DNA of 64,000 nucleotides from a candidate division FCPU426 bacterium (lineage in GTDB: Bacteria; Oederibacteriota; Muellerivitia; Muellerivitales; Muellerivitaceae), in NCBI GenBank assembly GCA_023249615.1, contig JAHFCG010000001.1, positions 2,257-66,256 of the forward strand, in the 5' to 3' direction. Numbering within the stretch: position 1 is the stretch's first letter; every line of letters begins with the position of its first letter. Shown one piece after another: positions 1,883 through 62,184 of the stretch. The notes under the pieces are model-generated. The model was not told the DNA's origin. It saw only the letters and a program-made list of their open reading frames with translations, and did no database searches. A program made the position numbers and the translations under genes.

Positions 1883-4800
1883 TCAGAATCTCGCCTCCAC
1901 TGAAATAGTTCCCTGCCAAAGCGTGTAATCAAAAGTATGGTTTTTCTTGGTTTCGTCCGTCGGGTCATACGTCGGGGAAAGCTCATAGGTCGTGTTGGTA
2001 AAATACTCATTGGCGAGTCCAATGCCGACCTTCAGGTTTTTCAGGGCGTTATAGGTGAGATCGATTGTACCACGGTACTTTTGCGTCTTGATCTGGGTGT
2101 AGACGCTGTTGGAATCATTTTCAATGAACTCCATCGAAAAGGTCGACCTAAGTTCGATGGCATCCTGGAGCTTCAACTTCCATTTTGTGAAGGGAATGTG
2201 AATCTCAAGGTTAGGCGCGAATTTTTGGGTGTACTCGATATAACCCAGGTCATCGTGTGGAAGGGTTTCCGTCTGCCGCGTAAGGGTATGGCCCGTGGTT
2301 CTTTGCAGGTGGATATTCCCCTGGGCCTTCGCGTTGATGTCATAAGGGAAGGTAAAGGAATAAAGGTCGGTATAGGACTGCGTGTCGATGATCGGCGGAT
2401 TCGAACTGTCGTATTGGTTGTTTTCGGTCCGGGTATATTGAAACTGGGCGCTGTTCAAGTTGAATTTGATGAAAGGGACCGTGAATATCCGCTTGGTGTA
2501 ATTGGTGGTCAACCCAAGGGTCCTCCCGTCCTGTTTGATGGGATTGGCGCCCCTGGACAGTACGCTCTCCTGCTGGTTCCAGGCTCCGGTCGGCTTGAAT
2601 TCCCAAACATCAAAAAGCCTGAAACTTCCGTTCACCTGTTCAGAGTCGGACTTGTTGCCGGTAAGGGCGAATTTGGAGATTTTTGACCAGGTCGTGTATT
2701 TATCCTCAAAGGTCAAAGCCTCGGTAACCGGCACGGAACCGAAATTGGGGATGGTTTCCGTAAGGTTTTCGGTCCAACCGCCGTAAATCGTGACCCCTAT
2801 TTGCTGTAGAAGCGGAAACCAAATACCCGGGGAAAGATTCACCGAAAGGTTTTGGGAATTGGCGTTGGTGAACCTGGTCCCGTCGGGGAAGGAAACAAAG
2901 TCATATTGATTGCTCCCCGAATAATCCGCCTGGGGGGTTATTCCCGGAATACCCCTGAAAACCATGCCGATCTTGGGCTTGTACCCCTGTTGAAAGGGAA
3001 CAAAGTCGGGAACGGGTGTTCCCTGCACGCCCGGGCTGTTGGTGTTACCCATCGCGTCGATGAGTGAAAGGGAGTATCCGGGGGTAAACACGAGATTCTT
3101 GACCAGCTCGGTCGTGTTGGTCCAGCTATAGTTTTGAAGACGGGTCGTTCGGTCATAGTTGGCAAGTGCCAGGGCCGGGGGGCTGGGGGCGGAAAGGAAT
3201 TCCTGCCGGTCATGGGTCAGGGTAAAGGTCTGGTTAAACTGGTTTGTCCCTATGTTGAGGAAAAAGAGTTTCAACGGCGCGTCGTAGGTACTGTTCAGGT
3301 TTAAAACTTCCTGCCCCTTTCTCGTGTCGCCCTGAACACCCGGCTGGGTTTTATAATCGTCCAAATACTTGTCGGTTTCATAGTTGGTACTCCCCGAAAC
3401 CCGGACGTTGGTCAGGCGCCCAAAACTGGGGCCAAGATCCTTGGTGTACCCGATGCTTCCGGTGGCGTTGTCCACTCTGGTATCGGGAAGGGCTAGGTAA
3501 TAGGGGTTTTGCTTCAAAGCCTCCTCGGTGGTCGTGTCCTGCTGGGTTACGTGAAAATCCGTGGACAAAGGCTGGCCGAAAAGTTTCACCGCGTTGGAGG
3601 AATAGTCGGCGCCCAGCTGCCGTGAATGCTGGAAATGGGTTGAGGTTTGATCCATCTGGGTAAACCCGGAATCCACCTCCCTGTACCGGGTATTGACCGT
3701 GGCGAAGTTGTCTCCCAGGTTAAAGGCGGCATTGACGCGCCGGGCAAGACCGGTTCGGCCAGCCGGACTGACTGTTCTCAGGTTGTTGATCCACAATTCC
3801 CCGGATTGGGCGGAAGGAGCGTTTGGCGAGACAACCCCAAAACTGATCTGGGAGGACCGATTGAGGAAAGGCTTCCCAACCTTAAGGCGGTTCCCCTTGG
3901 ACCCATCCAGGGGAATAACCAGCGTGTTCCAGGTGGAAAGATATTTATCAACCAATTGGATGTTATATTGGTAGAAGTTTTTCTGGTCATTTCCCAGACG
4001 GATAAAAAGTATTTCCCCCGGTTGGTAGGACTTTATTTGTAAATCAAGCCGAAGTTCCTGGAAATCCGTAAAATCAAGTCCCTGGCCGTAAAGACGGGTG
4101 GCGTAATAAATGGGTTTACCGTTGATATTGTTGGCCGGTTCAAAATCCGCCGAGGACAGGTTGTAGGTTATTTTGAGGGACTTTTCCCTGTTCAATATCG
4201 CCGTTTGATCCTGGCCTGTGGCAATCGTCAGGAACCGCAATATACCCTGGTAGCGGTCGGGTTCCTGTTCATGGCTGATGGAGCTGACATCGAATTTACC
4301 GGTATTCACCGTGACGCTTTGATTCGCGTTGGCGTCAGGGTCCACTTCCAACTGCCAAAGGTTTCTTGAAAAACCGATATTCTCAATCCAGAAACCTCCA
4401 GCCACTTCCGCCGGGGTCGTTCCGGTTGTCCAAACCCGGACGGCTTTAACTATTTGGGGATTAGGCGCCCCCACCTGGTGGAAGAAATAGGAAATTCCAT
4501 CCGATGTAAAACTCAACGCGTCCGGCGCGGTGAAATTGATCGGGATTTTGACCTGCTTCCAGGTTTTATACGGCCAATTGACCCTGACTCCATATTCAAA
4601 ATAGGAATTGGCCGTGTCCAGCACCCCGTTTCCGTTCATGTCCTCCGTGATATAGGTCGTATTGGAGCTGAGGTTATTGCTGACCCCTTCCTGGGAAACC
4701 TCCCCTTGATAACCAAGAAACCCCCCCGTGGCCGGGTCAAATTGGGCGCCCGATCCGGGGCTTGAGTTATTCCAGGGGGTTCCAAGCGCGTAAAAGGTTG

Positions 4801-7800
4801 GAATCCCATAACCGGGATTGGAAAGACTCGGGCTTCCCTGATTCGGATCGTGGTCAAGAATGGGCGCGTTCGAGTTGGAATCCTCGTTGATAATCCCAAA
4901 GTCAAACATGACCCATTTATCGATTCCGTCGTTGCAAATCCAGGTTTGAAAATAACGCGTATTGGACAAATCCGTTCCCGTGGCGGTTAAAACCTGCCTT
5001 ACCCCGGCCCAGTTCTGGCTGCTCAAGTGGGAGTAGGGAAATTGTAAAACGCTGACGACATCCTTTCCGTTTTGGGAAGAGGCCCAGGTATGTCCCCCAT
5101 AACCCGGGACACTGGTGTAATCCAGGCCGCCGGTTCCGTTTTGGGTCCCAATCTGCTGGAAATCCATTTGCGTCGCGGGAGCGCTATCATTGTAAAACCT
5201 GACCCTGTTATTGGTGAGGGTTTGGGATCCGTTGGGGGAAAGGCCGGGCAAAAAAGACGGAACGGCGAGTGGCGGGGAGGAAACCAGCCAATTGGTCGGG
5301 TTCATGGCGGGGCTGGTGGAATTATCTATTCCCTCCATGTTATCGATCATGGCCACCCCGCTTTCACCCTCGGCGTCGAAGGTGTTGGGGCTGAAATAAC
5401 TTTGAGCCACCTCACCCGACAATTTGATGTTCAAGGGCGGTTTCCAGTTTTCAAGCCCGGGGATAATTCCCGTTATGGATTGGAGGTCCTCCGGACTTAT
5501 GTCGTATTTGGCGTCCGCGTCCACGACGGCAAGGGAGTTCGGCGTTGACCCGATCTGGGGAACCTCATTGGGTTGTTGGGTGGTGGTGTAAAGGAAGGTG
5601 GAGCCAAGGAAGAAATGGTCCGTGAGGTCATATTCAGCCCTTGCCCCCAAAATATTGTTCTGGCCGAAGGAACCGAAAGGAGCGTACTCATAGGTCACCA
5701 CCACCTGGCTGTCCGGCCGCAAAAGGCTCTTATCCTGGAAATCCAGGAAGCCGGAGTTGTAATCAAAGAAATAATCGGCGTCCCTTTTCAGGCGGTGGCC
5801 GTCCAGGTAAACCGCCTCGCTTCCCCGGATGATGTTGAAGCGGTCGAGCCGGTAAAAATCCAGTTTGGTTTTATATTCCACGTGGATGCGCTTGGCGCTG
5901 GCGGGAGGGGAAGTTTGGCTGTAAACATCCCCCGGACCTGTTCCGGCGGAAGCGTCGATATTCGCGAAGGGCCTTTCCGGAAAATAAGGCGGAGCCGCGA
6001 AGGTCACGCTGGTATTGGTGACCGTTAAAAGATTCAGGTCCTGGTTGACCTGAAAGGCCCAGGGACCCGCGCCGCCGGTTTGAAGGGTGTTGTTGTTCCC
6101 CTGGTCAATGATTTGAAACAGGAATTCCGGGTCCTGCTGGGGCGGGACAATTTTATCCCGGCCCAGGTCAAAGTAATTCAAGAGGTAAAGCGGGCTCACG
6201 ACGGTTGAATTTTTATTGTCCTTGATTAAATAGGCCCGTCCCACATTGGTTACCAGTCCATTGGGATCAACCTGAAGGGTGTCCGGATTCGTCAGATCAA
6301 TTTGACCGCTCGGGTCATAACCGATGGAATTGTTGTTCCGGTCAATAAAGGCCACGGCGATCCGCGAGTTGAGGCTGAGGGCCCGGTTGAAGGTGATCAC
6401 CCCCGTGGAGTAATCGATGGTGTAATCCTTCCCCGGAAGCCAATGCTCGAAAAAACCCCGGAAAATTTTTGGATTGCTTTGATCCGGGAAAATCCCGTTG
6501 GCCGGATCCACCCAAATTTCCTCGCTGTTGCTCTGCGGCAGGGCGTTATTGACGACCTGACTGCCGATGGTGACGGGGCTGGAGGCCCGGGTAATCAAAA
6601 AATACCGGAAACGCATGTATTCAATGTCCTGGATGTCCCTTTTCACCTGGACATAGTTCCCCTTGAAGACCTTGGTTTCGGAAATTCCCTTGGTCTGGGC
6701 GAAAAAGGAGGAAAAGCGGAACCTGTCAAACTTCAATTTCGCCTGGAGGCCGAATAATTTTTTGCTGAAACCGGCGAACTCGGTATTCGGCAGGTAAAGA
6801 TCCAGATCGCCGAAAGCCACTTCCTGGATGGGGCTGTCCTCGTTCCCGTGGTAAACGATGGAAATATTTTGCTTGGTCTGGTCCACTCCCCCCGTCCCGG
6901 TGCCGTTGTTTCGATTCACGTCGCTGTAATCCACGTTGACGTCGACGTTCTTCCCCACCTTCCCCTGCAGGTTCACCACCAATTCCTGGTTGACCTGGGT
7001 ATTGTTGTTGTCGGCGGAAATGGCGGTAATTTTGGGATCACGGTTGAAATGCTGGAAGCTGAAAACCGCCTCAATTTTTTTGTACCCCTGGATCGAAAGC
7101 TGGGTATCCGCCGGCAATTGCAAATTGATGATCTTTTGCTGGGGAACGTCCAAGACCTTCTCTTCTTCCGGGGGCAGGGTGGCCTTGGGTTTGAGGGCTT
7201 CCGCCTTTTCCTCCTCCGTCAGGGGAATTTCCAGTCCCTGGGGAGTCACGGTATTTTCCTCGGAATAGGCGCCGACCGTTCCCTGCGAATCCACGGCGGC
7301 CACCACGTAAAAATAATCCTCACCGTTTTTGGGGGCCGAAAGACTGTTTTGGGCGCCGTCCAGGAAATAAGGGGCCGGCAGGGGTTTTAAATTGACCAAC
7401 TTGTATCCGATTCCAGGAACCGTCGAACGGTAGACGTTATAAGACACCACGTGGGAGGGCACCGGAGCGGAATCCCAGGAAAGATAAACGCCATCCTTGA
7501 GGGTCAGTATTTTGATGCCCGTGGGGACCGGAGGAGGGCCAAAGGAAGTCACGGGAGCCGAGGTGGCCCCGGGAGTGGGGGTGTTCCCAATGTAATCAAT
7601 CCCGTCCAGGACCTGGATTTCTTCCTGGGGGCTTAAGTTCAAATCCTTGGCGGGAGTGGTAATGCTTTTTTGCGACACAGGCCCTGGCGTGGGGGTTTGC
7701 GCGAACGCTGAATTCGACGCTGTTAGGAAAACTATCCCCAAAATGACCAGAAGGATCTTGGTTGGCCCCCCCAAAGAACCTGCCGGGCGGCAGGTTTTCT

Positions 7801-7879
7801 CCTGTCGATGGAACAGGGGAAAAGATTTGACGCCGGAGGGAGATGTAGTAATGGTTGTGGCCTTCCTGGTAAACATCAA
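1883..7879 (-). CDS. Giant (~1998 aa) secreted outer-membrane protein. It has an N-terminal signal peptide plus an Fn3-like module and a C-terminal beta-barrel signature (...EARF terminal Phe). It is possibly a SprA/Sov-like very large beta-barrel.
   Basis: Long ORF with an N-terminal hydrophobic stretch KILLVILGIVFLTASNSAFAQ and an N/T/S/G/Y/Q-rich composition typical of OM barrels, ending in a C-terminal Phe. The SprA assignment is inference only. The true start is probably downstream of the annotated M (possible TTG). Confidence 0.75.
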   Translation of the reverse strand: MMFTRKATTITTSPSGVKSFPLFHRQEKTCRPAGSLGGPTKILLVILGIVFLTASNSAFAQTPTPGPVSQKSITTPAKDLNLSPQEEIQVLDGIDYIGNTPTPGATSAPVTSFGPPPVPTGIKILTLKDGVYLSWDSAPVPSHVVSYNVYRSTVPGIGYKLVNLKPLPAPYFLDGAQNSLSAPKNGEDYFYVVAAVDSQGTVGAYSEENTVTPQGLEIPLTEEEKAEALKPKATLPPEEEKVLDVPQQKIINLQLPADTQLSIQGYKKIEAVFSFQHFNRDPKITAISADNNNTQVNQELVVNLQGKVGKNVDVNVDYSDVNRNNGTGTGGVDQTKQNISIVYHGNEDSPIQEVAFGDLDLYLPNTEFAGFSKKLFGLQAKLKFDRFRFSSFFAQTKGISETKVFKGNYVQVKRDIQDIEYMRFRYFLITRASSPVTIGSQVVNNALPQSNSEEIWVDPANGIFPDQSNPKIFRGFFEHWLPGKDYTIDYSTGVITFNRALSLNSRIAVAFIDRNNNSIGYDPSGQIDLTNPDTLQVDPNGLVTNVGRAYLIKDNKNSTVVSPLYLLNYFDLGRDKIVPPQQDPEFLFQIIDQGNNNTLQTGGAGPWAFQVNQDLNLLTVTNTSVTFAAPPYFPERPFANIDASAGTGPGDVYSQTSPPASAKRIHVEYKTKLDFYRLDRFNIIRGSEAVYLDGHRLKRDADYFFDYNSGFLDFQDKSLLRPDSQVVVTYEYAPFGSFGQNNILGARAEYDLTDHFFLGSTFLYTTTQQPNEVPQIGSTPNSLAVVDADAKYDISPEDLQSITGIIPGLENWKPPLNIKLSGEVAQSYFSPNTFDAEGESGVAMIDNMEGIDNSTSPAMNPTNWLVSSPPLAVPSFLPGLSPNGSQTLTNNRVRFYNDSAPATQMDFQQIGTQNGTGGLDYTSVPGYGGHTWASSQNGKDVVSVLQFPYSHLSSQNWAGVRQVLTATGTDLSNTRYFQTWICNDGIDKWVMFDFGIINEDSNSNAPILDHDPNQGSPSLSNPGYGIPTFYALGTPWNNSSPGSGAQFDPATGGFLGYQGEVSQEGVSNNLSSNTTYITEDMNGNGVLDTANSYFEYGVRVNWPYKTWKQVKIPINFTAPDALSFTSDGISYFFHQVGAPNPQIVKAVRVWTTGTTPAEVAGGFWIENIGFSRNLWQLEVDPDANANQSVTVNTGKFDVSSISHEQEPDRYQGILRFLTIATGQDQTAILNREKSLKITYNLSSADFEPANNINGKPIYYATRLYGQGLDFTDFQELRLDLQIKSYQPGEILFIRLGNDQKNFYQYNIQLVDKYLSTWNTLVIPLDGSKGNRLKVGKPFLNRSSQISFGVVSPNAPSAQSGELWINNLRTVSPAGRTGLARRVNAAFNLGDNFATVNTRYREVDSGFTQMDQTSTHFQHSRQLGADYSSNAVKLFGQPLSTDFHVTQQDTTTEEALKQNPYYLALPDTRVDNATGSIGYTKDLGPSFGRLTNVRVSGSTNYETDKYLDDYKTQPGVQGDTRKGQEVLNLNSTYDAPLKLFFLNIGTNQFNQTFTLTHDRQEFLSAPSPPALALANYDRTTRLQNYSWTNTTELVKNLVFTPGYSLSLIDAMGNTNSPGVQGTPVPDFVPFQQGYKPKIGMVFRGIPGITPQADYSGSNQYDFVSFPDGTRFTNANSQNLSVNLSPGIWFPLLQQIGVTIYGGWTENLTETIPNFGSVPVTEALTFEDKYTTWSKISKFALTGNKSDSEQVNGSFRLFDVWEFKPTGAWNQQESVLSRGANPIKQDGRTLGLTTNYTKRIFTVPFIKFNLNSAQFQYTRTENNQYDSSNPPIIDTQSYTDLYSFTFPYDINAKAQGNIHLQRTTGHTLTRQTETLPHDDLGYIEYTQKFAPNLEIHIPFTKWKLKLQDAIELRSTFSMEFIENDSNSVYTQIKTQKYRGTIDLTYNALKNLKVGIGLANEYFTNTTYELSPTYDPTDETKKNHTFDYTLWQGTISVEARF

Positions 7880-8143: not shown

Positions 8144-8893
8144 TCAATCCAACCCCAGGGCTTTTTTCAAATCATCCAAACGTTCCCGGCTTACCGGCAG
8201 GCGTGTTTTGGCCGTGTCGGATAAAACCGCCATGTATTTCCTGTCCCCCTCATGGTCCAACTCCTTCAGGTAATCCAGGTTGATGATGGCGCTCCGGTGG
8301 ATCCTCAGGAATTTTTCGGGATCCAACCGCTGGGCAAGGGCGTCCAGCCGGTCATCCGCCAGAAGCTCCTGGCCTTCCACCAGCAAAAGGGCGTAATGGT
8401 CCTTGGCCACAATGGCGGAAACCTGGGTTGGGTTAAACACCCGGTACTTGGCCCCGCACTTGATGGCCATCCGCCTTTTCGCGTTTCCTTCCTCCATTTT
8501 TTTGAAGAATTCCCTGCGGTCGGTCTGGGTTTTAGGATTTTTTCTTTTCCGGATTCTTTCAATGGTTTCACCCAGTCTTTCGGGTACCACGGGTTTGACA
8601 AGATAATCCACGGCCGAAAGTTCAAATGCCTTCAGCGCGTGTTCGCTGTAGGCCGTGACGAAAACCACCGCTGGTCCTTCCCCGCCCCAGGCCTCGGCAA
8701 CTTCCAGGCCGTTGAGCTCCGGCATCTCGATATCCAAAAAGACCAGATCCGGCTGAAGTGTTTGCGCGACCTGAAGAGCCTCCAAACCATTGGAGGCCTC
8801 GCCGACAACCTTCAGGTCCGAAAAAACCGCCAGCATCCTGGCAAGCCGGGAACGGGCGGGTGCTTCATCATCCACAATCAGGGCCTTAATCAT
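8144..8893 (-). CDS. Response regulator with an N-terminal receiver domain and a C-terminal LytTR DNA-binding domain
   Basis: MIKALIVDDE...DLVFLDIEMPELNGLEV receiver motifs; the C-terminal half is LytTR-like; it overlaps the upstream kinase by 4 nt. Confidence 0.85.
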   Translation of the reverse strand: MIKALIVDDEAPARSRLARMLAVFSDLKVVGEASNGLEALQVAQTLQPDLVFLDIEMPELNGLEVAEAWGGEGPAVVFVTAYSEHALKAFELSAVDYLVKPVVPERLGETIERIRKRKNPKTQTDRREFFKKMEEGNAKRRMAIKCGAKYRVFNPTQVSAIVAKDHYALLLVEGQELLADDRLDALAQRLDPEKFLRIHRSAIINLDYLKELDHEGDRKYMAVLSDTAKTRLPVSRERLDDLKKALGLD

Positions 8894-20140: not shown

Positions 20141-20483
20141 TGGTGGAGGTGGTGGGAATCGAACCCACGTCCTGAAAAACATCCGTAATGGGCACTACGT
20201 GCGTAGCTCCGGAATGAGTCTCGCTCTCCGCTCGCTCCCGAGCGGCCGGCGAAGAGCCAGTCCCTTTGGTTCTCGTCCGCTCATCGGTGGAACAACCCTG
20301 TTGCGGACCAGCCTACTACTTACGTCCCGTTCCCTTAATAGGCATCAAGGACAAGACGCTAACCGCTTTAAGCGGCCAGAGCTAACTGATTGTCGGCAGT
20401 TAAACCGTTGCCATGTTTGACGAGCGATGGCGCCTCGACACGCACCCAAAAGTTCAGCTTCCCAGTCGAAACCGGTCACCCCC
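20141..20483 (-). ncRNA. ssrA: tmRNA (SsrA), one-piece
   Basis: The minus-strand 5' end is GGGGGTGACCGGTTTCGACTGGG and the 3' end is GGTTCGATTCCCACCACCTCCACCA (tRNA-Ala-like T-arm/acceptor + CCA). The internal tag ORF GCC GAC AAT CAG TTA GCT CTG GCC GCT TAA encodes ADNQLALAA* (20368-20397). Confidence 0.9.
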
Positions 20484-23157: not shown

Positions 23158-23255
23158 AGCCACCGATGAATGGGATGAATACGGATACCCAAAAGGGAAT
23201 TTCCTGTTTTTCAAAAAAAGATTTAAAGCCATCTGTGTTTATCGGTGTTCATCGG
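23158..23255. repeat. Related element: GCCACCGATGAA ... TTATCGGtgttcATCGGTGGC (phased ATCGG repeats, outer 12-bp inverted repeat)
   Basis: ATCGG at 23241 and 23251; the inverse arm is at 23158-23169. Confidence 0.5.
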
Positions 23256-23259
23256 TGGC

Positions 23260-23685
23260 TCAATGGCTTGCGATTGGTTCTTCGTCGAACTGTTCCTTGT
23301 CATTCAATACCCATGATTTCATAGAGGTGAACTTACCCTTTTGGATGGACATGATGACGTAGGAAAAACCAGGCCAAGCCGCCTGTCGGTCTGTTTCCGA
23401 GGCTTTATCAGTGTGATCAGGATGGGAATGGAATATCCCCAGAACATCCAATCCCTTTTGCCGGGCGAGGGCTTCCCCCTTCATATAATCTTTAGGATCC
23501 ATGTCATATCGGGTTTCGGGCTTGAGTTTATTCAGGTTGCCGCATTCAAAAACTTCCGTGACGACACGGGGTTCCCCCGCCTTTCCAAACATAAACCCGC
23601 AAATCTCATAGGGATATCCCTTTTCGGCAATAGCGATCATGACTTTCTTCGCCTGTTCATTTTTAAAAGAAATCATTATTCCCAC
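23260..23685 (-). CDS. JAMM/MPN+ (Mov34) metalloprotease, Mec+/QbsD-like
   Basis: EICGFMFGK...FHSHPDHTDKASETD fits the JAMM ExnHxHx7Sx2D motif. It overlaps the upstream cysteine synthase by 10 nt. Confidence 0.8.
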   Translation of the reverse strand: MGIMISFKNEQAKKVMIAIAEKGYPYEICGFMFGKAGEPRVVTEVFECGNLNKLKPETRYDMDPKDYMKGEALARQKGLDVLGIFHSHPDHTDKASETDRQAAWPGFSYVIMSIQKGKFTSMKSWVLNDKEQFDEEPIASH

Positions 23686-38953: not shown

Positions 38954-40048
38954 CTATCGGCGGTTTAAAAGCGCGTTTATTTCCTGGGCCATTTGGGACA
39001 GGGGTACCTGCCGGTCCACCATTCCCGAATCCACCGCGGCCTTGGGCATCCCGTAAACCACGCAGCTGCCGGCGTCCTGGGCGAACGTTTTTCCCCCCAC
39101 GGCATGAATATCCTTCAAACCCGCGGTTCCGTCCCTGCCCATTCCGGTCAGGATAACTCCCATGCATTGCTTGCCCGCTGTTTTGGCTACAGAGCTCATC
39201 ATGATATCGGCGGAGGGTTTTACGCCCAGCCTTGGGGGGTGATCATTAAAACCAAACTTGTAATGCCCGGCACCTCCCTCAAGAACCAGGTGAAGGCCCG
39301 CCGGGGCGACATAAGCGTGGCCCCCCATGAGATACTCTCCATCCTCCGCCTCTGAAACCTCCAGGCGGCTGACCTCACCCAGGCGCCTGGCCAGGGCTTT
39401 CGTGAAACCCACCGAAATATGCTGAACAATCACGAAAGCGACGCTCGAACTCCGGTTTAAATTGGAAAACAATTCATTGAGCGCCCTGGGCCCTCCGGTT
39501 GAGGAGGCCACCGCCACGATAAAAGTGGCCGGTTTATCCCTTTCAACCGTTTCTGGTTCGGCAGGCTTGACATTTTTTTTTACCGTGGATTCGGCGGAGA
39601 CTCCTTCCAATTCCTTGTTTCGGCGGGGCTTGCAAAGGGAGGCCATTTTTATTTTCTCGACCAATTCTCCCTGGATTGCCTTGGCGTTTTCCAAAACGCG
39701 CCCTGCCGGTTTACCGATACAATCGATGGCTCCCAGTTCGAGGGCCCTGATGGTTGTTTCGGTTCCCTTGCCTGTATGGCTGGAGATCATGACAACGGGA
39801 GTTGGCGAATCCTTCATTATTTTTTCGAGGGCGGCCAACCCGTCCATCTTGGGCATTTCCACGTCGAGCGTGATGACGTCCGGTTTCAACTTTTTGGCTT
39901 TTTCGACCGCCTCGAGCCCGTTCTGGGCGGTGTCCAAGACGGTGATTTCCCCATTGGTGGTATTCAGGATTTCAGACAGGATTTTTCTCATGAAAAAAGA
40001 ATCGTCGACGATAAGAACACGGATGGTTTTGGATTTTTCAGCCGTCAT
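38954..40048 (-). CDS. cheB: Chemotaxis methylesterase CheB (REC + CheB_methylest)
   Basis: IRVLIVDDSFFMRK receiver followed by a methylesterase domain (GASTGG...). Confidence 0.9.
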   Translation of the reverse strand: MTAEKSKTIRVLIVDDSFFMRKILSEILNTTNGEITVLDTAQNGLEAVEKAKKLKPDVITLDVEMPKMDGLAALEKIMKDSPTPVVMISSHTGKGTETTIRALELGAIDCIGKPAGRVLENAKAIQGELVEKIKMASLCKPRRNKELEGVSAESTVKKNVKPAEPETVERDKPATFIVAVASSTGGPRALNELFSNLNRSSSVAFVIVQHISVGFTKALARRLGEVSRLEVSEAEDGEYLMGGHAYVAPAGLHLVLEGGAGHYKFGFNDHPPRLGVKPSADIMMSSVAKTAGKQCMGVILTGMGRDGTAGLKDIHAVGGKTFAQDAGSCVVYGMPKAAVDSGMVDRQVPLSQMAQEINALLNRR

Positions 40049-40104
40049 GGAGGTTCCCGGTCAAATTACGGTTTGTCTTAAAAAGCTCAAAACGACTTTT
40101 GCCG

Positions 40105-40184
40105 CCGATCAAATCCGATACACGCCGATAAATCAAAATTATTTTTTACAGTTTGTAGTAATCGGCGTCCATCGGAAGTTATCG
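40105..40184. repeat. Palindromic element made of three 10-bp-phased CCGAT units, an AT-rich spacer, and three 10-bp-phased ATCGG units
   Basis: gCCGCCGATcaaaTCCGATacacGCCGATaaatc...gtaATCGGcgtccATCGGaagttATCGGCGGttg. Confidence 0.6.
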
Positions 40185-40207
40185 GCGGTTGCTTTTTTTC
40201 TTAACTT

Positions 40208-40618
40208 TCAAGCCCCGACGACCCGCTTCAAGGCTTCCTGGACGCGGGGCGGCTGGAAAGGTTTGATGATAAAGTCCCGAGCACCGGCCTGAATGGAATC
40301 AATAACCATGCTTTGCTGGCCCATGGCGCTTACCATGACGATTTTAGCCTCCGGGTCAAAGGCCCTGATTTCCCTAACGGCTTCAATGCCGTCCAATTCC
40401 GGCATGACAATATCCATGGTGACCAAATCAGGTTTTAATTTTTTATATAATTCCACGGCTTCCCGACCATTGGAAGCTTCCCCTGCCAATTCATAGGGTT
40501 CCCTTAAAATAATCCCCTTTAAGATGGTCCTCATGAAGGAGGAGTCGTCGCAAAATAAAACTTTGATGGCCAAGGCTTTTTCCTTATTTGGGGATTGCGG
40601 CTTCCGAATCCACGACAA
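40208..40618 (-). CDS. cheY: CheY-like single-domain response regulator
   Basis: VLFCDDSSFMR...DLVTMDIVMPELDGIEA. Confidence 0.85.
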   Translation of the reverse strand: MSWIRKPQSPNKEKALAIKVLFCDDSSFMRTILKGIILREPYELAGEASNGREAVELYKKLKPDLVTMDIVMPELDGIEAVREIRAFDPEAKIVMVSAMGQQSMVIDSIQAGARDFIIKPFQPPRVQEALKRVVGA

Positions 40619-61710: not shown

Positions 61711-62082
61711 TTACGCAGATAACGGCCGGTAAAGACCGATGGGTTCAAAAAGGGTTAACCAGTCTCCGAATTTCCATTTTTTTCTTCCAAAGTTCAGCAA
61801 AAGACAAACCTTAAGCTTGGTTGCTTTCAAATAGTTGTAACACTGGGCGACGTGAGCCGGATCCAAAATTTTAACCGCTTTTAACTCAACCAATACGCAT
61901 ACCTCAACCAACAAATCCGCGATATGTTCACCGACAAAAACCCCGTCGTACATTACCCGAATGGCAAACTGCTGTTTGACTTCATGTCCTTCTTTCCGCA
62001 ATTCGTGAGCCAAGGCATTTTCATAAATCTTTTCAAAAAAAACCCGCGCCCAATTCACCACCAACTTTAAAAGCATGCCCAA
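61711..62082 (-). CDS. GxxExxY family protein (PD-(D/E)XK-like)
   Basis: YENALAHELRKEGHEVKQQ...DLLVE..VLVELKAV...YNYLKATKLKVCLLLNFG matches the family pattern. Confidence 0.7.
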   Translation of the reverse strand: MGMLLKLVVNWARVFFEKIYENALAHELRKEGHEVKQQFAIRVMYDGVFVGEHIADLLVEVCVLVELKAVKILDPAHVAQCYNYLKATKLKVCLLLNFGRKKWKFGDWLTLFEPIGLYRPLSA

Positions 62083-62148
62083 TCACTTTTTCGGTTATGG
62101 CGTCCAACTCACCCGCGAATTTATTGGGCATTATTTCCCCACTTCGTT

Positions 62149-62173
62149 ATCGGCCTTTATCGGTCTTGTCGGC
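62149..62173. repeat. Related half-element: TTATCGGcctTTATCGGtcttgTCGGCG (10-bp phased)
   Basis: ATCGG at 62149 and 62159, and TCGG at 62169. Confidence 0.4.
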
Positions 62174-62184
62174 GTACAAAGGAA

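What the first reader, a model, noticed from the sequence alone, without database searches (positions are those of the whole stretch)
40105..40184. Helically phased CCGAT / ATCGG triple repeats forming a palindrome inside the che operon
Between cheY (stop 40208) and cheB (start 40048) there are three CCGAT units at exact 10-bp spacing (40105, 40115, 40125), then a 30-nt AT-rich spacer, then three ATCGG units at exact 10-bp spacing (40160, 40170, 40180). Overall it is an imperfect 30-bp-arm palindrome (CCGCCGAT-N4-TCCGAT-N4-GCCGAT). The 10-bp phasing puts every unit on one DNA face, which is typical of an oligomeric DNA-binding regulator. Alternatively it is a mobile MITE-like repeat.
Basis: seen in the sequence. 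Interest (0 to 1): 0.6.

Follow-up and report, generated by a model that had tools for sequence, protein, structure and literature searches.

The report
Mobile palindromic repeat inside chemotaxis operon
The phased CCGAT palindrome between cheY and cheB is not a chemotaxis control site but a gene-less copy of a widespread, apparently undescribed family of palindromic repeats, whose gene-carrying relatives always enclose a small nuclease of unknown function (GxxExxY).

Summary
Strict arrays occur 3 times in the window against 0.045 expected.

It is an insertion. Six of six related genomes with the same gene order have only 19-88 nt between cheY and cheB and no array; the window has 159 nt.

It belongs to a large family. 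Each arm is 2-4 tandem 10-bp units, consensus RRCCR-CCGAT-GAACR-CCGAT-RAACR-CNGAT. Copies are mostly intergenic and occur several times per genome. Hosts include Acidobacteriota, Planctomycetota, Gemmatimonadota, Burkholderiales, FCPU426, Chloroflexota and Thermoplasmatota.

The window holds two more copies: a degenerate one at 23158-23260, and one whose arms enclose a frameshifted GxxExxY (PF13366) PD-(D/E)XK nuclease gene at 61711-62177. All 10 independent GxxExxY loci examined have the same inverted arrays. 51 of 119 homologues begin with M[ND][AT]D, the translation of an arm unit.

No Rfam family or paper matched. Verdict: a non-autonomous, MITE/REP-like copy of a new element family. How it moves is inferred, not shown.

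The parts
40100..40129 (.). Element A, left arm: outer TGCCG plus three 10-bp units (CCGAT at 40105, 40115, 40125)
   Evidence: The arm is 28/30 identical to the left arm of the FCPU426 copy L081.
40130..40160 (.). Element A, loop: 31 nt, AT-rich, no ORF
   Evidence: The loop cannot be aligned with loops of related copies, while the arms align.
40161..40190 (.). Element A, right arm: three units (ATCGG at 40161, 40171, 40181) plus outer CGGTT
   Evidence: 27/30 identical to the right arm of L081. The outer AAAAGCAACCGCCGAT matches Terriglobia copies.
40080..40099 (.). Outer left flank: AAAAAGC pairs with GCTTTTTTT (40191-40199) in the predicted fold. It contains a 14-nt extra segment. The element boundary here is uncertain.
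   Evidence: Fold of the mRNA strand: -49.9 kcal/mol, z = -4.8
40191..40199 (.). Outer right flank GCTTTTTTT
40077..40081 (+). CTTAA, repeated at 40200-40204: a possible 5-bp target-site duplication (weak evidence)
   Evidence: family D1. Not seen at element B, and there is no general flank signal in 120 copies.
40200..40204 (+). Second CTTAA copy
40208..40618 (-). CheY-like receiver gene upstream of the insertion; its stop codon is 8 nt from the element
38954..40048 (-). cheB downstream of the insertion
23158..23260 (.). Element B: an older gene-less copy between JAB and EamA genes. The right arm is consensus-like (ATCTG/ATCGG/ATCGG + TGGCT). The left arm is degenerate (CCGAT, GGGAT, CGGAT). 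The outer base overlaps the JAB stop codon.
   Evidence: It is absent from the same junction in relative L217, where the gap is 6 nt.
61711..61740 (.). Element C, arm next to the 3' end of the nuclease gene (CAGAT, CCGGT, CCGAT at 10-bp spacing); it encodes the last ~10 codons and the stop
61711..62131 (-). GxxExxY (PF13366/TIGR04256) PD-(D/E)XK nuclease gene, frameshifted in an A8 run at 62035-62042. It lies between the two arms of element C.
   Evidence: The same truncated product appears in an ENA assembly.
62149..62177 (.). Element C, arm upstream of the nuclease gene (ATCGG, ATCGG, GTCGG + CGTA), 17 nt from the ATG

Best explanation
Element A (about 40080-40199) is a gene-less, non-autonomous copy of a dispersed family of palindromic repeats. 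Each arm of these repeats is a short tandem array of 10-bp modules with an invariant CNGAT core. The copy was inserted into the 30-40-nt spacer between cheY and cheB in this lineage only. Gene-carrying relatives hold a ~125-aa GxxExxY PD-(D/E)XK nuclease gene in place of the loop. One such relative, now a pseudogene, lies at 61711-62177 in this window.

Shown: family membership, insertion, intergenic habit, and the link to the nuclease gene.

Inferred: the phased cores are recognition modules read on one face of the duplex, most likely by the nuclease. The nuclease would cut at or between the arms so that the element is copied, either by repair or gene conversion between copies or by cut-and-paste.

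In the che operon the copy is probably a passenger. Its only likely effect is an imperfect hairpin of about -50 kcal/mol in the cheY-cheB transcript, which could be a processing or stability site.
For: The third unit and the CCR flank were not in the pattern, yet they are conserved: C .79, G .77, A .75, T .72, and C .90 at position -2.

Intergenic habit: only 27% of copies lie in an open frame of at least 450 nt, against 92% of random positions. By crude gene calls, flanks are 37 convergent, 40 co-directional and 6 divergent.

Background: 529 kb of unrelated che loci hold no real arrays.

Insertion: the cheY-cheB gap is 30, 35, 35, 33, 88 and 19 nt in six relatives, with conserved gene order in the three TopA-anchored loci, against 159 nt here. 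Element B is likewise absent in L217.

Conserved arms: A's arms are 55/60 identical to a copy in another genome, while the loops are unrelated.

Nuclease link: 10 of 10 independent GxxExxY loci carry the arrays, 9 with both arms and L206 with only the downstream arm (window C, L008, L055, L200, L201, L203, L206, L213, L215, L216). 51 of 119 homologues start with M[ND][AT]D, against 1 of 120 TopA controls.

Cores conserved without pairing: paired spacers are identical in only 27% of cases.
Against: No movement has been observed. No general target-site duplication was found. No known transposase domain is associated with the family. Three close relatives hold no copies in 66 kb, so the copy number in this lineage is unknown. 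The nuclease gene could instead be cargo, or a secondary invader of the loops, rather than the enzyme that moves the repeats. Binding of the nuclease to the cores is pure inference.
Confidence: 0.8

Rival explanations
1. It is an operator array for an oligomeric DNA-binding regulator that controls cheB and downstream genes. This was the reader's first reading, for example via the LytTR response regulator at 8144-8893.
For: The units have exact 10-bp phasing and the arrays are inverted. The cores are conserved while the spacers vary. A LytTR regulator is encoded in the window.
Against: The array is absent from the orthologous junction in 6 of 6 relatives. It lies inside an operon with no promoter-like site. 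The same structure occurs at unrelated loci in many phyla and flanks a nuclease gene. The family avoids divergent, promoter-type intergenic regions: 6 of 83. From my own knowledge, LytTR sites are 9-bp direct repeats about 21 bp apart, which does not fit.
Confidence: 0.04
2. It is primarily an RNA element selected for function in the che transcript: an RNase III site, intra-operon attenuator or mRNA stabiliser that uncouples cheY from cheB expression.
For: The mRNA strand folds to -49.9 kcal/mol, z = -4.8. Family copies sit mostly downstream of genes. Terminal-repeat stems of 23S rRNA intervening sequences are cut by RNase III (PMC4990558).
Against: Relatives manage without it. Stems are imperfect: paired spacers are identical in only 27% of cases. 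There is no strand bias of G-U over A-C mismatches on the transcribed strand (48 vs 39, p = 0.39). No terminator-like site was found. No Rfam family matched. An RNA effect is plausible as a by-product, not as the reason the element exists.
Confidence: 0.1
3. The repeats are ordinary MITEs of a conventional transposase-encoding insertion sequence that was not sampled. On this view GxxExxY genes merely tend to land in or beside them.
For: The elements have inverted arms, small size, many copies and insertion polymorphism. There is a possible 5-bp CTTAA duplication at A. Copies cluster and nest (L063, L215, L216).
Against: No transposase gene was seen between arms in about 880 kb of element-bearing loci; the only long arm pairs enclosed GxxExxY or host genes. 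The outermost bases vary by lineage while the internal cores are invariant, the reverse of typical transposon ends. The nuclease start codon often lies inside the arm.
Confidence: 0.06

Closest known systems
REP/BIME elements and their REP-associated tyrosine transposases (RAYTs)
   Same: Short, intergenic, imperfect palindromes in many copies, placed mostly downstream of genes. A small enzyme gene is flanked by inverted copies of the repeat, as RAYT genes are.
   Different: No GTAG/CGTC head (feature as summarised in PMC3733652). The arms are tandem 10-bp modules. The enclosed gene is a PD-(D/E)XK nuclease, not a Y1 transposase, and it forms a very large family (>7,800 homologues at E<=1e-10). 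The core motif is shared across phyla.
MITEs such as Neisseria Correia/NEMIS elements (own knowledge)
   Same: About 100-150 bp, terminal inverted repeats, inserted between co-transcribed genes, present or absent between related strains, forming hairpins in mRNA.
   Different: No consistent target-site duplication. No parent element with a known transposase. The arms are built of phased decamers with internal, not terminal, conservation.
23S rRNA intervening sequences that carry a small ORF (e.g. Coxiella IVS with S23p; PMC4990558)
   Same: A selfish insert with ~28-bp terminal inverted repeats forming a stem and a ~120-aa ORF in the loop. It is patchily distributed and the ORF often decays. 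Window copy C is frameshifted.
   Different: Those sit in rRNA helices and are removed by RNase III. These sit between protein genes, have decamer-array arms, and encode a nuclease rather than a four-helix-bundle protein.
Free-standing or intron-borne PD-(D/E)XK homing endonucleases (e.g. I-Ssp6803I) and other PD-(D/E)XK mobility nucleases (TnsA of Tn7; Rpn/YhgA-like PDDEXK_2) (own knowledge)
   Same: A small PD-(D/E)XK nuclease with intact catalytic residues sits inside a mobile or repeated DNA context. Gene-less sites with the same arm types exist.
   Different: No sequence-level family membership. No cleavage data. The putative target is a dispersed repeat rather than a single conserved host gene.
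Drosophila Foldback elements (own knowledge)
   Same: The inverted arms are themselves composed of short tandem repeats (10-bp class) with a variable middle.
   Different: Eukaryotic, kilobase-scale and unrelated in sequence. Only an architectural analogy.

Membership tests
MITE | Small, non-coding, with terminal inverted repeats | tested here: met
   About 90-120 bp, 30-bp arms, no ORF
MITE | Many dispersed copies | tested here: met
   3 copies in the window. At least 117 loci in other genomes, several per genome. The home genome outside the window was not scanned.
MITE | Insertion polymorphism (empty orthologous sites) | tested here: met
   6 of 6 relatives lack A; L217 lacks B
MITE | Target-site duplication | tested here: inconclusive
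   CTTAA on both sides of A. None at B. No flank signal over 120 copies.
MITE | Autonomous partner with the same ends that encodes a transposase | tested here: not met
   The partner gene between identical arms is a GxxExxY PD-(D/E)XK nuclease. No transposase domain was found.
REP/BIME-RAYT | 20-40-nt palindrome with a conserved GTAG or CGTC head | tested here: not met
   The consensus is RRCCR-(CCGAT-N5)n. The defining feature is as described in PMC3733652.
REP/BIME-RAYT | Y1 (RAYT) transposase gene flanked by the repeats | tested here: not met
   The flanked gene is PF13366 in 10 of 10 cases. The Y1_Tnp gene seen in L219 has no arrays nearby.
Transcription-factor operator array | Conserved at the orthologous regulated locus | tested here: not met
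   Absent in 6 of 6 relatives
Transcription-factor operator array | Overlaps or adjoins a promoter | tested here: not met
   It lies inside an operon with no sigma-70-like site. The family avoids divergent intergenic regions. Other promoter types are not covered by the scan.
Intrinsic terminator | G+C-rich hairpin followed directly by a U tract | tested here: inconclusive
   The scan found none, but it only scores loops of 3-8 nt. In the fold the U run pairs with the upstream A run.
Known structured RNA (Rfam) | Match to a curated covariance model | tested here: not met
   No match at the gathering score in the window or in 18 loci. Only chance-level miRNA hits at E of 0.2 or worse.
PD-(D/E)XK nuclease (for the associated gene) | Restriction-endonuclease-like fold with D...(D/E)xK catalytic residues | tested here: met
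Homing endonuclease system | Nuclease cleaves the gene-less allele and is copied into it | not testable with these tools
   Gene-less and gene-bearing copies share arm types (A/L081 vs L200; L039 vs C). No cleavage or conversion data exist.
23S rRNA IVS-type element | Located in a 23S rRNA helix and excised by RNase III | tested here: not met
   All copies seen lie between protein genes. RNase III cleavage cannot be tested here.

The most novel reading that the evidence does not exclude
GxxExxY proteins (PF13366/TIGR04256, thousands of members, function unknown) may be the nucleases of a previously unrecognised class of selfish element. Its ends would be inverted arrays of phased CNGAT decamers. 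The nuclease would read these arrays and cut gene-less palindromes, or extruded cruciforms, so that the gene and/or the palindrome is copied to new sites. On this view the abundant gene-less palindromes found across bacterial phyla and Thermoplasmatota MAGs, including the one in this che operon, are its non-autonomous progeny or its homing sites.
Probability: 0.35. Interest if true: 0.85.

Novelty: new variant of a known kind. Interest (0 to 1): 0.7.

Why it matters
For this locus, the result removes a tempting but wrong reading: the palindrome is not a chemotaxis operator. It is a recent insertion that may alter processing of the cheY-cheB transcript.

More broadly, it links a very large protein family of unknown function (GxxExxY, more than 7,800 homologues at E<=1e-10) to a specific, conserved DNA structure found across several bacterial phyla and in Thermoplasmatota archaeal MAGs. 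That gives the family a testable job and a defined substrate. It also offers an explanation for contig breaks seen beside or inside these elements. Finally, it points to a possible new way for small palindromic repeats to spread without a classical transposase.

Tried and rejected
- **Rfam.** The window at gathering score, 18 element-bearing loci, and the region at E<=10 all gave nothing relevant.
- **Literature.** Searches for GxxExxY, PDDEXK_3/PF13366 and 16 literal repeat strings found no description of the repeats or the association. A MITE survey paper held nothing pertinent.
- **Terminator/promoter scan.** None found.
- **Chance.** Rejected by shuffles and simulations and by a 529-kb control set.
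- **Phage origin.** Only 2 pattern hits in 2.9 million viral contigs. No PHROGs or PADLOC match for the nuclease.
- **RNA-strand selection.** G-U vs A-C asymmetry was not significant.
- **Strict hairpin conservation.** Not supported.
- **Viral search for GxxExxY loci.** 175 pattern matches but none confirmed, so it was uninformative.
- **Solved structures.** The sequence search found no family member.
- **Long arm pair in L062.** It enclosed ordinary host genes and is probably two separate elements.
- **Organism name.** Look-up by cluster gave none. TopA homologues show only an unnamed MAG clade.

Full report
**1. The observation.**
Reading 39900-40400 confirms three CCGAT pentamers at 40105, 40115 and 40125. 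A 31-nt AT-rich spacer follows (40130-40160). The arms pair at the pentamers and at the outer CCG/CGG, but mostly not at the 4-5-nt spacers (76% complementary over 37 nt).

CCGAT itself is not over-represented (153 against 166 expected). CCGAT-N5-CCGAT is: 7 against 0.28 expected. Strict three-unit arrays occur 3 times against 0.045 in simulations.

The flanking ORFs are a receiver-only CheY-like protein and CheB. They sit in a cheC-cheD-cheW-cheY-[element]-cheB-cheA cluster. The sequence is identical in an independent ENA assembly, and a Logan contig from another run ends inside the arm.

**2. More copies in the window.**
The relaxed pattern search and direct reading found two more members.

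- Element B (23158-23260) lies between a JAB-domain gene and an EamA gene. One arm is consensus-like (GAGCCACCGATGAACACCGATAAACACAGAT). The other is decayed.
- Element C has two inverted arms, 61711-61740 and 62149-62177. They enclose a 139-codon gene, 61711-62131(-), that matches PF13366 (PDDEXK_3) and TIGR04256 (GxxExxY).

In element C one arm ends 17 nt before the ATG, and the other encodes the last codons and the stop. The gene is frameshifted in an A8 run. An ENA assembly contains the same truncated product.

**3. Element A is an insertion.**
CheB-anchored metagenome loci and TopA-anchored loci gave six related genomes. The three TopA-anchored loci have conserved gene order. Identities to the window are CheB 57-74% and TopA 79-86%. 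Their cheY-cheB gaps are 33, 88, 19, 30, 35 and 35 nt, and none holds an array. The window's gap is 159 nt.

Removing 40080-40199 leaves about 39 nt. Element B is also missing from the JAB-EamA junction of L217, where the gap is 6 nt. A CTTAA pentamer flanks A on both sides. B shows nothing similar, and 120 family members show no general flank signal, so I treat this as weak.

**4. The family.**
I scanned one genome per species for CCGAT-N5-CCGAT-N(25-55)-ATCGG-N5-ATCGG. A handful are chance hits inside genes. The rest are clearly one kind of element.

- Structure: 2-4 tandem 10-bp units per arm and a 10-40-nt unconserved loop.
- Consensus: RRCCR-CCGAT-GAACR-CCGAT-RAACR-CNGAT-AA.
- Independent support: the third unit and the CCR flank were not part of the pattern, yet they are strongly conserved.

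Hosts are mostly Bryobacterales, Solibacter, Holophagae and Terriglobia. Tepidisphaerales/Phycisphaerae, Gemmatimonadaceae, Burkholderiales MAGs, FCPU426, Chloroflexota and a Thermoplasmatota archaeon also carry it. Several loci come from single genomes.

Copies are intergenic. Only 27% lie in an open frame of at least 450 nt, against 92% of random positions in the same loci. By crude gene calls, flanks are 37 convergent, 40 co-directional and only 6 divergent. A 529-kb control set of unrelated che loci holds essentially none. Viral contigs hold 2.

The nearest relative of A is a copy in an FCPU426 MAG (L081). Its arms are 55/60 identical to A's, including the non-complementary spacers, while the loops are unrelated. 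The host of the window belongs to an unnamed MAG clade. Its TopA is 79-91% identical within the clade and about 53% to Nitrospirota.

**5. The link to the GxxExxY nuclease.**
A tblastn search with the window protein found two more genes in the element-bearing loci, and both are flanked by arrays.

- L008: arm, gene, then a complete palindrome.
- L055: three CCGAT units upstream and three ATCGG units directly after the stop, at 9-bp spacing.

I then fetched seven further loci through homologues of the protein. Three of these were chosen because their N-termini did not look arm-derived. Six have both arms. The seventh (L206) shows only the downstream arm, with no array in the 127 nt of sequence held upstream of the gene.

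The hosts named by the records include a cyanobacterium (Scytonema, CAGAT cores), an Acidobacteria MAG (CAGAT) and a Geobacteraceae MAG (CGGAT/CAGAT). The closest homologue of the window protein carries CCGAT cores, TTAACCGCCGAT...ATCGGCGGTTAA, and sits between copZ-like and copA genes.

That makes 10 of 10 independent loci with arrays. Two layouts occur: arm-gene-arm, and arm-gene-arm-loop-arm. Extra gene-less palindromes often sit alongside (L203, L215, L216).

Protein sequences give independent support. 51 of 119 homologues begin with M[ND][AT]D, for example MNADERR, MDADKRR, MEPQINADERR and MDTD. This is the in-frame translation of CCG-ATG-AAC-GCC-GAT-GAA-CGC. Only 1 of 120 TopA N-termini has the motif, and none of the 119 has it elsewhere in the protein.

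Many homologues sit on ~1-kb contigs, and the contigs carrying window copies A and C end inside or right beside the elements. This is what repeats do to assemblies.

**6. The protein.**
The family is very large, with more than 7,800 hits at E<=1e-10 before the candidate cap. Its function is listed as unknown, with mixed bacterial and archaeal clades, in the PD-(D/E)XK survey (PMC3424549).

- D72, E82 and K84 (D...ExK) and the GxxExxY glutamate are invariant.
- The AlphaFold model is confident (pLDDT 94.7).
- No relative has a solved structure by sequence.
- It matches no PADLOC or PHROGs model.

**7. How it most likely works.**
Shown: element A is an inserted member of a dispersed family. The family's conserved feature is the phased core, not a perfect stem. 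Paired spacers are identical in only 27% of cases, against 16-17% for unpaired comparisons. There is no transcribed-strand bias of G-U over A-C mismatches (48 vs 39). The gene-bearing form always carries the nuclease.

Inferred: a protein reads the cores along one face of the duplex, given the 10-bp (sometimes 9-bp) spacing. The best candidate is the nuclease encoded between the arms. Cutting at or between arms would then let the gene and/or the palindrome be copied. This could happen by homing-like repair between copies, by recombination between direct arms in the arm-gene-arm-loop-arm layout, or by cut-and-paste. None of these steps has been observed.

In the che operon the copy is probably a passenger. 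On the mRNA strand it folds to -49.9 kcal/mol (z = -4.8). It could therefore be an RNase III or stability site, as shown for the terminal-repeat stem of the Coxiella 23S intervening sequence (PMC4990558). Relatives do without it.

**8. Comparison with known systems, and novelty.**
The element behaves like a MITE or REP: small, palindromic, intergenic, multi-copy and polymorphic. It fails defining features of both.

- It has no consistent target duplication and no transposase-encoding parent, so it is not a classical MITE.
- It has no GTAG/CGTC head and no Y1 transposase, so it is not a REP/RAYT system.

Its architecture recalls IVS-type inserts (stem plus small ORF) and, distantly, Foldback elements (arms made of tandem decamers). 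No Rfam model and no paper in the searchable library describes the repeat or its link to GxxExxY. A description in literature not held there cannot be excluded.

I rate it a new variant of a known kind (bacterial intergenic palindromic repeats). If the nuclease proves to be the mobility enzyme, it could be a new class of element.

**9. Verdict.**
The regulator reading is not supported, and the mobile-repeat reading is supported. The follow-up uncovered a cross-phylum association that gives a large family of unknown function a concrete, testable context.

Noticed in passing
window 20141-20483 (-): tmRNA gene (Rfam RF00023, 173 bits), the only Rfam match at gathering score in the window.
   Followed up: no
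window 62035-62042: An A8 homopolymer run carries the frameshift that splits the GxxExxY gene of element C. The same truncated product is in an ENA assembly, so it is either a real pseudogene or an error shared through the same reads.
   Followed up: partly
window 1883-7879 (-): A 1998-aa ORF with no Pfam match at E<=1e-5.
   Followed up: no
L203 1768-2870 (Scytonema sp. HK-05, AP018194.1): Tandem amplification around a GxxExxY gene. There are three copies of arm plus gene 5' end at a 110-bp period upstream, and four palindromes at a 142-bp period downstream. This suggests the arms are recombination or slippage hot spots.
   Followed up: partly
L008 2141-2807 (Holophagaceae MAG): A DUF433-like and PIN-like small gene pair (judged by eye from the translations, not scanned against Pfam), probably toxin-antitoxin, sits between rfb-type genes. 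A degenerate arm (ATCAG/ATCAG/ATCGG) follows it directly. Other small selfish genes may use the same arms.
   Followed up: no
L063 1310-1900 (Acidobacteria gp18 MAG): Outer inverted arms lie 530 bp apart. They enclose a complete nested palindrome and odd low-complexity repeats (TGACAAATGA-like), with no GxxExxY gene.
   Followed up: partly
L219 17607-18545: In one close relative, a Y1_Tnp (IS200/RAYT-type) gene and two unknown genes replace the enolase-to-EamA segment that is syntenic in the window. No decamer arrays are nearby.
   Followed up: no
L004 4860-4918 and L068 1312-1368 (Thermoplasmatota MAG): Typical family palindromes (CCACCGAT... units) occur in contigs binned as an archaeon. This is either cross-domain spread or a binning error.
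   Followed up: no
L002 start; ENA contig k141_2164961 end (L212); contig lengths: The contigs carrying window copies A and C end inside or right beside the elements, and many GxxExxY homologues sit on ~1-kb contigs, suggesting that the repeats fragment metagenome assemblies.
   Followed up: partly
L055, L082, L097, L117 (Gemmatimonadaceae MAGs): In L055 the arm units are spaced 9 bp apart rather than 10, which bears on whether helical phasing is the constrained feature. Copies from other Gemmatimonadaceae MAGs (L082, L097, L117) looked similar by eye but were not measured.
   Followed up: no
(viral-contig scan with alignment A1): 175 stretches matched the GxxExxY peptide patterns but none passed the tblastn check, an unexpected tool result left unexplained.
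   Followed up: no
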